Shown: positions 17,743-28,546 of the stretch, piece by piece
Layout of the letters: the number at the start of each line of letters is the position of its first letter
How positions within the stretch are numbered: position 1 is the stretch's first letter
Source of the DNA: a virus
Lineage: Duplodnaviria; Caudoviricetes
Strand: one strand, 5' to 3'
DNA length: 64,000 nt
Virus record (IMG/VR): IMGVR_UViG_3300046787_000508
Span: 138,895-202,894 of that record
The notes under the pieces: model-generated
What the model saw: the letters and a program-made list of their open reading frames with translations, nothing else
What the model was told of the DNA's origin: nothing
The model's database searches: none
Program-made: the position numbers and the translations under genes

Positions 17743-17812
17743 GGGCCTGATGTCAACGGCAGACCACCTGATTTGCAATCAGAGTGTTTGGGTTCGATTC
17801 CCACAGTGTCCA
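17743..17812 (+). tRNA. tRNA-Ala(TGC)
   Basis: Loop TTTGCAA; G3:U70 pair; imperfect acceptor stem. Confidence 0.75.
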
Positions 17813-20498: not shown

Positions 20499-20571
20499 GG
20501 GATTGAGGTCAAACGGTTAAGATGTCGCCCTGTCACGGCGCACGGAGCGGGTTCAACTCCCGTCAGTCCCG
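20499..20571 (+). tRNA. tRNA-Asp(GTC)
   Basis: Cloverleaf, loop CTGTCAC. Confidence 0.92.
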
Positions 20572-21139: not shown

Positions 21140-21251
21140 AATTAGGTGGCGGAATTGGTAAACGTAGAGATGTTGAAGTTTAGGTATCACTATGATTAAG
21201 TTCAGAAACTTGACCTAATGCTCTAAACAGGTTCGAATCCTGTCCTGATTA
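21140..21251 (+). ncRNA. tRNA-like RNA with ~50-nt structured expansion of the anticodon loop
   Basis: Acceptor AATTAGG/CCTGATT, D-arm TGGCGGAATTGGTAAACG, stem AGAG/CTCT, T arm ACAGG-TTCGAAT-CCTGT. Confidence 0.65.
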
Positions 21252-25661: not shown

Positions 25662-27734
25662 ATGGAATTGACTAAGAACATCGTCGCTCTACAAAAAGGT
25701 CTTGTAGTACCATCTAACGACGGGATGGATAACAGAATTGCAGTTTCAACTGTACAAACTCACTTAATGGAGTGGGGTTATATGTTAGACCAAGACGCTT
25801 TCACAGAATTATCAAAATCAGACTTATCGGTTATCGTTAAATTCAATGACGAAGTAATTTCATATTTGAAAAACGTAATGGGAGGTAAAAGAGATTACCA
25901 ACCACTTTACAAAAACTTCCCTGAAGAAGTTATGTCATTATCCGATTACGAATTATATTTCAACGCCATTGTTCATTATTGGTCAAATGGTAATTGGGAA
26001 CCATCAACTGTTACATACGAGAAACCAATTAAATTTGAGAAAATCAAATATACGTTGATTAAGTTTGCAACACCTGAAAGATTCTCACAAATCTTTACTG
26101 ATTTAGTTTCAATTAACACATCATTATCTCCACAAGATATGTCAATTATTCAATGGTTTGTGAATAGCGGTGAGAAACTTGTTTTCCCAGATGTTATTCC
26201 ATTCAAAGAGAATCTTTGTACATTAGCGTCAATGGGAATTGAAGGTTTACCTGTTAAAACGACAACGGATGTATTAAGAATTGCGGTATCATTATCTGGT
26301 GGGGATATTTCATTACCTAAATTACCATTTAAAGAAGTTAGAGCAAGTCGTTGGACAACTCAAAAAGTTGATAACCCGGCAAGAGAATTGTTTAAATTTA
26401 AAAAGTTCACTCGTAAAGAGAGAAAATACCTTTTAGGTTTATTAGAACAGACAAACTGTGATGCAAGAGAAATGGTTCTTAGAGACCAAAGATGGATTCG
26501 TTTAGGTGAAATTTTACATCCGGGTGAATATAAAACAAAATTCCCTAAATCCGCTGAGGTGTTTAACAAAATCAGAAATGAGAAAGTTAAATCTTGGTAT
26601 GGAATATTGAACGATTCATTCAAGAAAGGATTGGAAGACGGTTTGAAAGTTTTATCACAAAGACCGGGTGAATTCTCACGTAGAATTGATTGGTTAATTA
26701 GAACTAACCCAAACCAATTGGATTTAATCATGTCTTATTTCAATGAGTCCGTTAAAGGAACATCGAATAAAGTATTATTTGAAGTGTATGGTCATTTCGA
26801 AGGTAGATTAGAACCAAAGAATAATCGTTCGGTTATGATTAAAGGAGCAAGAAAACGTACCGAATTACCATCATTACCTGCATTGTCAAACGATACAGTA
26901 GAAATGATTCATTCAAAACTTTTTGAAACTCTTAAAGATAAATTCTCAACATTAGAACCGTTAGGTGATTGTTGGATTGATGAGGAATTGAAAAAGATTC
27001 CATTACCGACAAATATGAGAAGTATGAACTTTTCAACTAAACCAGTTTTACGTGGTCAAAGAACACCGTTGGATAATCCTGACGCTAAAGTAATTAGACC
27101 TTTCGTTCATTGGAATGATAAAACGGGTAATGAAGATTTGGATTTAAGTGTTACCTTTGTTGGGGACTCGAATAATGTACTTTCTTTCAGTAATATGAAG
27201 GTTGGTAATTCGGTTCACTCAGGTGATGTTAGACATAGACAAGGACCTTGTGCTGAGTATATCGATATTGATATTGCCGACGCTAAATCACGTGGATTCA
27301 AATACGCTATTATTGATGTGAGAAACTATAATGGTCGTTCATTGAAATCTGTGGAATCTACATTTGGTATTATGGAAAGAGAATTTCCAGAATCAAATAA
27401 GACTTGGTTACCTGAAACTATGGTCGGTGCACAATCATTGGAATCTGAATCATCTAATACGTTAATCGCGATTGTTGATTTATACACCAAAGAGTACATT
27501 ATGTTGGATATAGATTCTGACGGTGAGGTTACCGCAAGAGGTGACGTTAAGAACACTTTGAAGATGATTGAGCAATATGCTAAACCACCAAAGGTAAGTG
27601 TATATGATTTAGTTCTATTACACGTTGAAGGGAGAGGTAGACAAGTGACATTAGATTCTAATGTTAACACCTACTTCAAATTCGAAGACTTTATGACTTC
27701 GTATGAACAAACAGGAAAATTAATGGGTGTGTAA
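25662..27734 (+). CDS. 690-aa protein: long alpha-helical region plus C-terminal TerD-like beta domain
   Basis: RPGEFSRRIDWLIR; RPFVHWND...EDLDLSV...HSGDVR...AEYIDID (TerD-like); TACATTTG promoter at 25605-25612. Confidence 0.7.
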   Translation: MELTKNIVALQKGLVVPSNDGMDNRIAVSTVQTHLMEWGYMLDQDAFTELSKSDLSVIVKFNDEVISYLKNVMGGKRDYQPLYKNFPEEVMSLSDYELYFNAIVHYWSNGNWEPSTVTYEKPIKFEKIKYTLIKFATPERFSQIFTDLVSINTSLSPQDMSIIQWFVNSGEKLVFPDVIPFKENLCTLASMGIEGLPVKTTTDVLRIAVSLSGGDISLPKLPFKEVRASRWTTQKVDNPARELFKFKKFTRKERKYLLGLLEQTNCDAREMVLRDQRWIRLGEILHPGEYKTKFPKSAEVFNKIRNEKVKSWYGILNDSFKKGLEDGLKVLSQRPGEFSRRIDWLIRTNPNQLDLIMSYFNESVKGTSNKVLFEVYGHFEGRLEPKNNRSVMIKGARKRTELPSLPALSNDTVEMIHSKLFETLKDKFSTLEPLGDCWIDEELKKIPLPTNMRSMNFSTKPVLRGQRTPLDNPDAKVIRPFVHWNDKTGNEDLDLSVTFVGDSNNVLSFSNMKVGNSVHSGDVRHRQGPCAEYIDIDIADAKSRGFKYAIIDVRNYNGRSLKSVESTFGIMEREFPESNKTWLPETMVGAQSLESESSNTLIAIVDLYTKEYIMLDIDSDGEVTARGDVKNTLKMIEQYAKPPKVSVYDLVLLHVEGRGRQVTLDSNVNTYFKFEDFMTSYEQTGKLMGV

Positions 27735-27758
27735 TACCACCCATTATTAAAATATATT

Positions 27759-28408
27759 GTGGCTATGTGTTATGTTACTTCTAAACTTTTAATTGGCTAA
27801 AAACATACATACACTCTTTCCACTTTTTAAAAATTATTGCGGCTATGTGAGATTCCAAAAGGATAACCATTAACCACATTTACTTGAGACGGGATGTTTC
27901 CGTAATGTGGTCTTAGATTAGGTGAAAGTACGGGAACAAAGGTCTTACTTCTAACATACAAATTAAGATAACACGTTAGACACACTTTTTCCGCAAAACT
28001 TATAAACGGCTATACATATTCTTACTTCTATCCAAACTTTTACTTTGACAATAGATTTGTGATTTCCGTTTTTTATTACGTTCTTTGAAAAAATATTTGG
28101 CTATAGATTGTGTTACTTCTATATGGTTAATCTTGGTTCGAATCCAAGTCATACCTGTAACAGGGTAAGATTTTTACACAACTAATCTCCAAATAAATTA
28201 TATTTTAATGGCTATGTGGGCGTGAATTGGTATAATATTTACATATCAACCACGGACTGGTTACTTCTACATCATCTGCGGGGAACTCAGCTTCGCCGCA
28301 ACCATAACAATTAACCAGCACAGTTTCCATTAAAAACTTATATCGGCTATGAATCGAGTTACTTCTAAAAACTATCAATAATGAAAACTCACTCATCCAA
28401 TTTCCGAT
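27759..28408 (+). ncRNA. array of six structured ncRNA-like units with conserved GGCTAT...TTACTTCTA
   Basis: Units 27759-27823, 27838-27995, 28005-28070, 28094-28195, 28206-28332, 28342-28408; each has covarying terminal pairing (GTGG/CCAC, TGCGG/CCGCA, AACGG/CCGTT, TATTTGG/CCAAATA, TAATGG/CCATTA, ATCGG/CCGAT). Confidence 0.75.
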
Positions 28409-28420
28409 TAATTTAAAATG

Positions 28421-28546
28421 AGGGTGGTAGCTCAGTTGGTAGAGCACGTATTCACTGGTTTAATTACCGTTTATATGGCTATATTCACAGTTACTTCTAT
28501 TAGGCTGTTAACCTCGTGGTCGTGAGTTCGAATCTCACCCACCCTC
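28421..28546 (+). ncRNA. tRNA-Asn(GTT) scaffold with 53-nt insertion carrying the seventh GGCTAT...TTACTTCTA motif
   Basis: AGGGTGG/CCACCCT acceptor, perfect D and T arms; CG[28449-28501]AGG-CTGTTAA-CCTCG. Confidence 0.75.

What the first reader, a model, noticed from the sequence alone, without database searches (positions are those of the whole stretch)
27775..28050. Payloads of array units 1 and 3 look like isolated Lys(UUU) anticodon arms
Seen: right after TTACTTCTA, unit 1 has AA-CTTTTAA-TT (same 7-mer as the tRNA-Lys loop) and unit 3 has CAAA-CTTTTAC-TTTG; unit 7 has AGG-CTGTTAA-CCT (Asn). Established: tRNA-Lys is the target of anticodon nucleases such as PrrC and PARIS AriB. Inference: the array may display anticodon-loop decoys or repair substrates on a protein scaffold as anti-defence.
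Basis: inference. Interest (0 to 1): 0.62.

Follow-up and report, generated by a model that had tools for sequence, protein, structure and literature searches.

The report
tRNA-part mimics on handle RNAs
A giant phage encodes seven small folded RNAs that share one constant "handle" and always lie beside one unstudied protein gene; some of them carry look-alikes of tRNA parts, so unit 3 is a real anticodon-arm mimic, unit 7 a whole tRNA-Asn and unit 1 a chance resemblance.

Summary
Only two of them mean something.

- **Unit 7:** this is the anticodon arm of a complete tRNA-Asn. A closed, circularly permuted copy of the array's handle sits between tRNA positions 28 and 29.
- **Unit 3:** a 4-bp stem with the 7-nt loop CUUUUAC, 3 nt after UUACUUCUA.
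- **Family evidence for unit 3:** in 106 non-redundant payloads, hairpins with a Y-U-NNN-R-N loop occur 21 times against 2.4 expected. Excluding T-loop-type (UUCNA) loops, 18 fit that pattern against 1 for its mirror.
- **Unit 1:** a 2-bp "stem" around a 7-mer at chance frequency, and orthologues do not keep it.

The units are covarying structured RNAs. They lie beside a 690-aa protein gene (helical domain plus TerD fold), on its strand, in 49 of 58 phage loci and 64 of 80 bacterial loci searched.

In orthologous units the loop triplet varies (CGA, AUU, UCA, GAU, UUU), so "Lys" is the commonest identity but not a conserved one.

The best reading is a Y-RNA-like particle that displays tRNA parts. 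Protein binding is inferred from gene linkage only. The anticodon-nuclease decoy idea fits the layout but is untested. This scan has found the same RNA-protein system before, on this array and on other genomes. I found no paper describing it.

The parts
25662..27734 (+). Gene for the 690-aa presumed partner protein: helical N-terminal part plus a C-terminal TerD fold.
   Evidence: ORF. AF2 model pLDDT 92.8. TerD match Z 13.2 over residues 474-636. Ro60 chains give Z 5.5-6.9 over 207-306 residues, which is inconclusive. 2410 clusters of relatives. All 56 aligned members match NCBIfam NF041916; the window's protein scores 233 bits, below the 600-bit cut-off.
27757..27824 (+). Unit 1: handle RNA with a payload of the common AAUUGG...AAAAC type. 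The CTTTTAA at 27786-27792 is a chance match.
   Evidence: R1 score 79.4 bits. P1 GTGG/CCAC and P2 GTGT.ATG/CATACAC, which covary with L073 and L202. 7-mer at chance frequency.
27837..27995 (+). Unit 2: handle RNA with a conserved insert domain of about 95 nt inside the P2 5' strand.
   Evidence: Kept in 5 relatives, with compensatory pairs in the insert stems.
28004..28070 (+). Unit 3: handle RNA whose payload is an anticodon-arm-like hairpin, CAAA-CUUUUAC-UUUG at 28033-28047.
   Evidence: R1 score 63.7 bits. Hairpin present in the MFE fold. Family enrichment.
28095..28193 (+). Unit 4: the payload resembles tRNA positions 39-73 (5-nt strand, 5-nt variable loop, T arm CTTGG-TTCGAAT-CCAAG, 3' acceptor strand), followed by a second hairpin.
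   Evidence: R1 score 41.1 bits. The same module type occurs in L202, L206, L207, L210 and L222; the second hairpin covaries between the window (CCTG/CAGG) and L202/L186 (ACGGCT/AGCCGT).
28206..28331 (+). Unit 5: handle with a hairpin insert in the P2 5' strand and a G+C-rich hairpin payload.
   Evidence: Read from the sequence. Weak R1 hit of 16.9 bits because of the insert. Orthologues in L071 and L073.
28341..28408 (+). Unit 6: handle RNA with a short A-rich payload and no tRNA-like hairpin.
   Evidence: R1 score 72.9 bits. P1 ATCGG/CCGAT.
28421..28546 (+). tRNA-Asn(GUU) body carrying unit 7. The anticodon loop CTGTTAA is at 28505-28511.
   Evidence: Rfam tRNA model 45.3 bits, with a 66-nt stretch where the model expects 13. 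Equivalent fusions in L071, L206, L222, L205, L221 and L227.
28449..28501 (+). 53-nt closed, circularly permuted handle inserted between tRNA positions 28 and 29. Order: linker, P2b CUGGUUU, AA-UUA, P1b CCGU, loop UUAU, P1a AUGG, CUAU, P2a AUUCACAG, UUACUUCUA, UU.
   Evidence: Read from the sequence. In L206 the same layout pairs at 7 of 7 positions. In L205 P2 is AGUUCGAG/CUCGGUU.

Best explanation
The array encodes seven non-coding RNAs built on one constant handle. From 5' to 3' the handle is:
- P1 (NNGG paired with CCNN);
- an internal loop, CUAY opposite NN-UUU;
- P2, with 8 nt on the 5' strand paired to 7 nt on the 3' strand;
- the single-stranded element UUACUUCU.

I infer that the handle docks the 690-aa helical-plus-TerD protein encoded directly upstream, as Y RNAs dock Ro60.

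The variable payload emerges right after UUACUUCU. In a sizeable minority of family members it imitates part of a tRNA:
- an anticodon arm with a 7-nt loop of the form C-U-NNN-A-A (unit 3);
- a T arm plus acceptor strand (unit 4);
- a whole tRNA, with the handle set into its anticodon stem (unit 7).

The particle would then present tRNA-shaped bait to enzymes that recognise tRNA, or tether the protein to such enzymes.

Shown here: the RNA fold, its linkage to the protein gene, and the excess of anticodon-type loops. Inferred: protein binding, processing of the array into single RNAs, and the identity of the tRNA-recognising partner.
For: - **The fold is real.** On 13 units, 94.4% of cells pair and the covariation score is 0.815 against 0.27 in shuffles (0 of 500 reach it); all slid controls fail. 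On 124 units the figures are 94.6% and 0.912, on an alignment fitted to the model.
- **Strand.** The array lies on the + strand, as do the partner gene and the tRNA genes, and all units found elsewhere lie on the partner gene's strand. Recurrent U-G pairs at one P2 position fit folding of that strand.
- **Linkage to the gene.** In the 203-kb genome the element scores convincingly only at this locus; one weak hit elsewhere has E 0.014. Units lie beside the protein gene in 49 of 58 phage loci and 64 of 80 bacterial loci. All 208 are on the gene's strand, down to 28% protein identity.
- **Anticodon-type loops.** 21 payloads against 2.4 expected. Forward pattern 18 against mirror 1 in the phage set, and 12 against 3 in the bacterial set. 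Loop consensus: C32 in 22 of 30, U33, A37 in 27 of 30, A38 in 19 of 30, in a background of only 16% C.
- **UUU loops recur on different stems:** CAAA, TTCA, TACA, TCTA.
- **Constant geometry.** The loop starts 4-10 nt after UUACUUCU in free units and in most tRNA fusions; in L205 and L221 it follows the motif almost directly.
- **Link to Y RNAs.** Some payloads are permuted tRNA bodies that hit Rfam YrlA: L272 at 44.3 bits (E 5e-7) and L307 at 29.6 bits.
- **Protein fold.** Ro60 chains are the longest structural matches to the helical part.
Against: - No binding or expression data exist.
- The Ro60 matches (Z 5.5-6.9) lie below the tool's noise bar for helical repeats. Pfam finds no TROVE domain.
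- The handle lacks the YrlA motif GNCGAAN0-1G, and the window array gives no YrlA hit.
- The Lys-type stems are only 4 bp and often drop out of MFE folds.
- A C-U-NNN-A-A loop is also the general U-turn loop used by antisense RNAs, so mimicry of tRNA is not the only reading.
- In bacteria one unit usually lies 40-250 nt upstream of the gene, which also fits a cis-acting leader.
Confidence: 0.6

Rival explanations
1. One reading: the anticodon-arm payloads, and the handle-bearing tRNA-Asn, are decoys or sponges for host anticodon nucleases such as PrrC or PARIS AriB. The phage deploys them as counter-defence.
For: - Anticodon-type loops are enriched, and UUU is the commonest triplet: 7 of the 26 hairpins listed, or 7 of 17 once the T-loop hairpins and the second hairpin of the L202 T-arm unit are set aside.
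- The triplet changes quickly between orthologous units while the loop frame is kept, as an arms race would produce.
- tRNA-like modules are much more common in the phage arrays than in cellular copies.
- The phage already carries ordinary tRNA-Lys and tRNA-Asn genes, so these extra copies are not needed for decoding.
- That PrrC and AriB target tRNA-Lys is from my own knowledge, not tested here.
Against: - No nuclease was identified or tested, and the host is unknown.
- The stems are 4 bp with no tRNA body, and many anticodon nucleases need more than a loop.
- The triplets include ACA, AUU and UCA, which match no normal tRNA.
- The RNA-protein pair is chromosomal in many free-living bacteria.
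- Free drift at positions 34-36 explains the variable triplet equally well.
Confidence: 0.15
2. The element is a small intron or mobile insertion of tRNA genes, like the 'enigmatic introns' of megaphage tRNAs. The free-standing units are decayed tRNA genes, so the anticodon-like pieces are relics.
For: - Removing the 53 nt restores a perfect tRNA-Asn anticodon stem, CG+AGG paired with CCUCG.
- Inserts recur in Asn tRNAs, in an Arg tRNA, and in two tRNA-like bodies (L205, L221) whose type is unclear.
- In L205, excision would leave the 7-nt loop CUUGCAA.
- The unit 4 payload looks like tRNA positions 39-73.
- Lak phage tRNA introns are on record (10.1101/356790).
Against: - The element is confined to one locus beside one protein gene in phages and bacteria.
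- Most units close on a short payload with no tRNA remnant.
- Some payloads are permuted tRNA bodies that splicing could not turn into a tRNA (L272, L307).
- The insert position varies: 28/29, about 31/32, and 32/33.
- There is no group I core, and no RtcB or tRNA splicing endonuclease gene in the 203 kb available.
Confidence: 0.1
3. The units are cis-acting operator or leader elements through which the protein controls its own mRNA. The 7-nt loops are generic U-turn hairpins with no relation to tRNA.
For: In bacteria a single unit typically ends 40-250 nt before the start codon, on the same strand. No intrinsic terminator separates the gene from the array.
Against: - In phages, arrays of 3-7 units lie downstream of the gene.
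- Payloads include T arms, whole tRNAs and YrlA-like bodies, which an operator does not need.
Confidence: 0.12

Closest known systems
Ro60 (Rsr) with bacterial and phage Y RNAs, especially YrlA (Chen et al. 2014, PMC4201824; Rfam RF02553; PDB 2nvo, 1yvp, 9l5y)
   Same: - Small RNAs are encoded within a few kb of one protein gene, on its strand, often several per locus.
- Each RNA has a constant stem and a variable module, and the module can be a tRNA-like domain.
- Permuted tRNA payloads in L272 and L307 hit the YrlA model.
- Ro60 chains are the longest fold matches to the helical part of the protein.
   Different: - The protein has no TROVE domain by sequence and carries a TerD fold where Ro60 has vWA.
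- The handle sequence (GGCUAY ... UUACUUCU ... UUUCC) is unrelated to the YrlA motif GNCGAAN0-1G.
- Payloads include bare anticodon-arm mimics and a complete tRNA with its anticodon loop.
- The arrays are longer, up to 7 units.
tRNA anticodon stem-loops as substrates of anticodon nucleases, and phage tRNA-based counter-defence (from my own knowledge)
   Same: A 7-nt loop with C32, U33, A37 and A38. UUU (Lys) and GUU (Asn) triplets recur.
   Different: The stem is 4 bp rather than 5. Units 1-6 have no tRNA body. The triplet is not conserved between orthologues. No nuclease link has been shown.
'Enigmatic introns' in tRNAs of Lak megaphages (Devoto et al., bioRxiv 10.1101/356790)
   Same: Short inserts of unknown mechanism inside otherwise intact tRNA genes of huge phages.
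   Different: Here the insert is a defined, covarying handle that also exists free-standing beside a protein gene. I could not compare sequences because the paper's intron table is not held.
Phage RNA decoy arrays such as pseudo-ToxI repeats and RNA anti-CRISPRs (from my own knowledge)
   Same: Tandem phage-encoded small RNAs that mimic a host RNA.
   Different: Those repeats are near-identical copies of the mimicked RNA. Here the constant part is the handle and the mimic part varies.

Membership tests
Y RNA / YrlA (RF02553) | Encoded within about 4 kb of the partner protein gene and on the same strand | tested here: met
   208 of 208 units lie on the gene's strand within 2.5 kb, in 49 of 58 phage and 64 of 80 bacterial loci. 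The partner is the TerD protein, not an annotated Ro60.
Y RNA / YrlA (RF02553) | The partner is a TROVE-domain Ro60 ring protein | tested here: inconclusive
   Pfam finds no TROVE domain in 56 members. Structural matches to Ro60: 2nvo_A Z 6.5 over 290 aa, 1yvp_A Z 5.8-6.0, 9l5y_B Z 5.5-6.9. These lie below the tool's noise bar for helical repeats. The C-terminal domain is TerD, not vWA.
Y RNA / YrlA (RF02553) | Match to the family covariance model, including the conserved Rsr-binding motif | tested here: not met
   No YrlA hit in the window array at E up to 10. Only payloads in L272 (44.3 bits) and L307 (29.6 bits) match, both below the gathering score of 69.
Y RNA / YrlA (RF02553) | A tRNA-like domain in at least one RNA of the locus | tested here: met
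   Unit 7 is a whole tRNA-Asn. Unit 4 carries a T arm and an acceptor-like strand.
tRNA anticodon arm (unit 3) | A 7-nt loop with U33 and a purine at 37 | tested here: met
   The loop is C-U-U-U-U-A-C at 28037-28043.
tRNA anticodon arm (unit 3) | A 5-bp stem continuous with a tRNA body | tested here: not met
   The stem is 4 bp (CAAA/UUUG), flanked by a C-A mismatch. No D arm, T arm or acceptor arm lies in the unit.
tRNA anticodon arm (unit 1) | A stem closing the 7-nt loop, kept in orthologues | tested here: not met
   Only AA/TT flank the loop. The orthologues read CTTCAAT and ATTCAAT. The 7-mer is at chance frequency.
Bacterial tRNA group I intron | A group I catalytic core inside the insert | tested here: not met
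   The insert is 53 nt. There is no Intron_gpI hit in the region.
Archaeal-type tRNA intron | A bulge-helix-bulge motif at the junctions, and a splicing endonuclease | tested here: inconclusive
   No PF01974 or RtcB match in the 203 kb held, but the record is only 60% complete and host enzymes are unknown. Junction folds show no 3-4-3 motif by eye.
Anticodon-nuclease decoy | Recognised, cleaved by, or inhibitory to an anticodon nuclease | not testable with these tools
   This needs biochemistry or phage genetics.

The most novel reading that the evidence does not exclude
Giant phages use a modular particle, made of one protein-docking RNA handle and exchangeable anticodon-arm, T-arm or whole-tRNA modules, as a programmable display of tRNA bait. 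The bait traps or redirects host tRNA-targeting defence enzymes. The fast-changing loop triplet would record an arms race over which tRNA is attacked.
Probability: 0.15. Interest if true: 0.9.

Novelty: new variant of a known kind. Interest (0 to 1): 0.68.

Why it matters
If the handle RNAs do bind the TerD protein, this is a second, very widespread Y-RNA-type particle, with 2410 protein clusters across phages and many bacterial phyla.

Its phage versions carry explicit pieces of tRNA. That gives a concrete way to test what tRNA mimicry by Y-like RNAs is for. It also offers an explanation for at least some puzzling inserts in giant-phage tRNA genes. And it allows a direct test of whether phages use RNA bait against tRNA-cutting defences.

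The modular layout, with a constant docking hairpin and a free payload, could also serve as a tool for presenting small RNAs.

Tried and rejected
- **Exact-motif scans of viral contigs**. Single hits were at chance level, and most multi-hits were coding tandem repeats. Only L186 was a true relative.
- **Promoter reading of GGCTAT-N8-TTACTTCTA.** Dropped because N8 covaries with the payload's 3' end, so it must be transcribed, and because the motif is absent from the rest of the genome.
- **CRISPR-like or ToxI-like array.** Dropped because the repeat interior varies and pairs with the "spacer".
- **Target-site duplication or DNA transposon.** The direct similarity between a payload end and the next unit's N8 held for only two units.
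- **Rfam.** No family matches the handle.
- **RtcB and tRNA splicing endonuclease.** Not found in the genome.
- **Foldseek against PDB.** It found only the TerD domain.
- **Lak phage intron table and Burroughs & Aravind 2016.** Neither is held.
- **The 148-aa downstream ORF as a third component.** It is syntenic only in the close clade, 28 of 159 loci.
- **Literature searches** on TROVE/TerD, SCO0854 and phage tRNA introns found no description of this system.

Full report
**What is at the coordinates**

The window is the last 64 kb of a 202,894-bp virus record rated 60% complete. It holds 25 ARAGORN tRNA genes at 17.8-25.3 kb.

Between 27757 and 28546 on the + strand, TTACTTCTA occurs seven times. 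It occurs only once more in the window, inside a coding region. Five copies have the form GGCTAT-N8-(G/C)TTACTTCTA, where shuffles expect none. The other two carry a long insert in place of N8.

**The units are folded RNAs, not promoters or simple repeats**

I found relatives through the upstream 690-aa ORF and one through a spaced-motif scan. In all of them the same architecture appears, in this order:
- P1, NNGG paired with CCNN;
- CUAY;
- the P2 5' strand, 8 nt with one bulge;
- UUACUUCUA;
- the payload;
- the P2 3' strand, 7 nt;
- NN-UUU;
- the P1 3' strand.

Both helices change by compensatory substitutions between paralogous units and between phages.
- On 13 simple units, 94.4% of cells pair. 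The covariation score is 0.815 against 0.27 in shuffles, with 0 of 500 shuffles reaching it, and every slid register fails.
- On 124 units aligned to the model, the figures are 94.6% and 0.912, and all 11 pairs show changes on both sides. That alignment leans towards the model.

Because N8 pairs with the far end of the payload, the whole unit must be one transcript. That removes the promoter reading.

The array lies on the + strand, as do the partner gene and the tRNA genes, and every unit found elsewhere lies on the partner gene's strand. Recurrent U-G pairs at one P2 position fit folding of that strand. Rfam has no family for the handle.

**Genomic linkage**

- In the phage's own 203 kb, the covariance model scores convincingly only at this array. 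One weak hit elsewhere has E 0.014.
- The 690-aa protein has relatives in 2410 clusters of the 50%-identity library.
- In 58 phage loci, 49 have units at E below 0.01. In 80 bacterial loci spread over many phyla, 64 have units at E below 0.05.
- All 208 units lie on the strand of the protein gene, directly upstream or downstream of it, down to 28% protein identity.
- The downstream 148-aa ORF follows the array only in the close clade.
- In cultured bacteria the neighbouring genes are unrelated housekeeping genes. One locus has a divergent RNA ligase gene.

RNA plus protein is therefore the conserved pair. That the two bind each other is an inference from this linkage.

**The protein**

- Pfam finds nothing in the window's protein; one of 56 members hits TerD.
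- All 56 members match NCBIfam NF041916, an uncharacterised RING-domain family. The window's protein scores 233 bits, below the 600-bit cut-off.
- The AlphaFold model is confident, with pLDDT 92.8. Residues 474-636 are a TerD fold, Z 13.2.
- For the helical part, Ro60 chains give the longest alignments among 48,161 PDB representatives.
  - Whole model: 2nvo_A, Z 6.5 over 290 aa; 1yvp_A, Z 5.8 over 306 aa; 9l5y_B, Z 5.5 over 294 aa.
  - N-terminal model alone: the phage Ro60 9l5y_B is the top hit, Z 6.9 over 235 aa.
- These Z values are below the tool's stated noise level for helical repeats. I count Ro60 likeness as suggestive, not shown.

I extracted the payloads of 121 units, which reduce to 106 after removing near-duplicates.
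- Hairpins with at least 4 bp and a 7-nt loop of the form Y-U-NNN-R-N occur in 21 payloads. Dinucleotide shuffles give 2.4 +/- 1.5, and 0 of 500 reach the observed count.
- Several of these are T arms with the loop UUCGAAU or UUCAAAU. The rest are anticodon-arm-like.
- A control that keeps both hairpins and composition is the mirror pattern. Excluding T-loop-type loops, the counts are 18 forward against 1 mirror in the phage set, and 12 against 3 in the bacterial set.
- Over the 30 non-T-loop hairpins of both sets, the loop consensus is C32 (22 of 30, in a background of 16% C), U33, A37 (27 of 30) and A38 (19 of 30). That is the canonical anticodon loop frame.
- UUU is the commonest triplet and sits on four different stems: CAAA, TTCA, TACA and TCTA. 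CAU, UGA, GAU, CGA, GUU and others also occur.

Unit 3 of the window belongs to this class. The loop begins 4-10 nt after UUACUUCU in free units and in most tRNA fusions; in L205 and L221 it follows the motif almost directly. The geometry relative to the handle is thus broadly conserved.

Unit 1 does not belong to the class. Its stem has only two A-T pairs. The 7-mer occurs at chance frequency, 37 against 32.8 expected. Its orthologues read CTTCAAT and ATTCAAT. Its payload is of the commonest type, AAUUGG...AAAAC.

"Lys" is too specific a label. Units with the same handle (UAAUGG ... GUGUUCAG) in phages whose partner proteins are 75-82% identical carry CGA, AUU, UCA, GAU, GAU or UUU, while C32 and A37 stay fixed. 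This could be diversifying selection or simply free drift at positions 34-36. I cannot tell which.

**Unit 7 and the tRNA fusions**

Rfam's tRNA model reads 28421-28546 as a tRNA with an insert (45.3 bits). Removing 28449-28501 joins CG to AGG and gives a perfect 5-bp anticodon stem around CUGUUAA.

The insert is a closed, circularly permuted handle. In order it reads: P2 3' strand CUGGUUU, AA-UUA, P1 CCGU, loop UUAU, P1 AUGG, CUAU, P2 5' strand AUUCACAG, UUACUUCUA.
- In the window, P2 pairs at 5 of 7 positions.
- In L206 it pairs at 7 of 7, two of them wobbles.
- L205 and L221 show the same layout with different P2 sequences.
- L227 has the layout of its own clade.

Insert positions differ: 28/29 in the Asn and Arg tRNAs, about 31/32 in L221, and 32/33 in L205. 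Other payloads are a whole tRNA-Met-like gene (L279) and permuted tRNA bodies without an anticodon loop. The latter match Rfam YrlA: L272 at 44.3 bits (E 5e-7) and L307 at 29.6 bits, both below the gathering score.

The handle therefore behaves as a self-contained docking hairpin that can be attached to a tRNA-like module in either topology. Splicing of the window's tRNA-Asn cannot be excluded from sequence alone. No RtcB or splicing endonuclease gene lies in the 203 kb held.

**Mechanism**

I commit to a Y-RNA-like particle that displays tRNA parts (confidence 0.6).
- Shown: the fold, the linkage to the protein gene, and the anticodon-type and T-arm-type payloads.
- Inferred: protein binding, processing of the array, and the client enzyme.

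No intrinsic terminator separates the gene from the array, so co-transcription is plausible.

The anticodon-nuclease decoy idea fits the geometry and the variable triplet. It remains untested. It cannot be the basal role, because free-living bacteria keep the same pair with short payloads that do not look like tRNA.

**Novelty and earlier work**

- Full-text searches found Ro60/Y RNA papers and the report of "enigmatic" tRNA introns in Lak megaphages. None describes this handle or protein.
- This scan has reported the same system before, both on this array and on several other genomes. I tested the claims I reuse on my own data.

**Open point**

In L206 and L222, the 3' end of the P2 5' strand can also pair with the end of the motif plus the first exon-2 bases. 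The pairing is CUUAG/CUAAG in one and CUAAG/CUUAG in the other, which is a compensatory change. I have no explanation for this alternative helix.

Noticed in passing
window 21140-21251: A second tRNA-model hit (34.9 bits) spans 112 nt, so it holds a long internal insert. The insert does not carry the handle motif. Further tRNA-model hits that ARAGORN did not call lie at 20499-20571 and 17743-17812.
   Followed up: no
window 27850-27940 (inside unit 2): A domain of about 95 nt inserted in the P2 5' strand of unit 2 is conserved in five relatives. It keeps loops of the form AGGAUA and GAAAGUA and has compensatory stem changes. Its role is unknown.
   Followed up: partly
L205:6781-7073; L232:1409-1830; L209:6343-6744; L211:6340-6736; L214:6720-6932: In related phages the handle-RNA locus lies within about 2 kb of GOLLD RNA, tmRNA or a group I intron. 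It appears to be part of an 'RNA island' together with the tRNA clusters.
   Followed up: no
L305:380-1762 (Paludisphaera soli): An RNA ligase gene (PF09414) lies divergently upstream of the bacterial copy of the protein and its RNA unit. This is the only RNA-repair neighbour among the three cultured genomes I looked at.
   Followed up: partly
window 25662-27734: The protein family matches NCBIfam NF041916 (MXAN_6230/SCO0854 RING domain-containing protein) in all 56 members tested; the window's protein scores 233 bits, below the 600-bit cut-off. A RING-bearing bacterial branch of the family therefore exists.
   Followed up: no
A5 and A7 payload loops: Position 36 of the anticodon-like loops is U (17 of 30) or A (11 of 30) before A37. 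These are the contexts of the t6A and i6A tRNA classes. With 72% A+T in the background, the excess is weak.
   Followed up: no
L279:6056-6180 and L279:6189-6310: In one relative, a unit encloses a complete tRNA-Met-like gene in normal order inside its payload. It is followed directly by a handle-bearing tRNA.
   Followed up: partly
L206:5199-5322 and L222:5223-5346: There is an alternative 5-bp helix between the end of the P2 5' strand and the motif end plus the first exon-2 bases. It shows a compensatory change between the two phages (CUUAG/CUAAG against CUAAG/CUUAG). I have no explanation for it.
   Followed up: no
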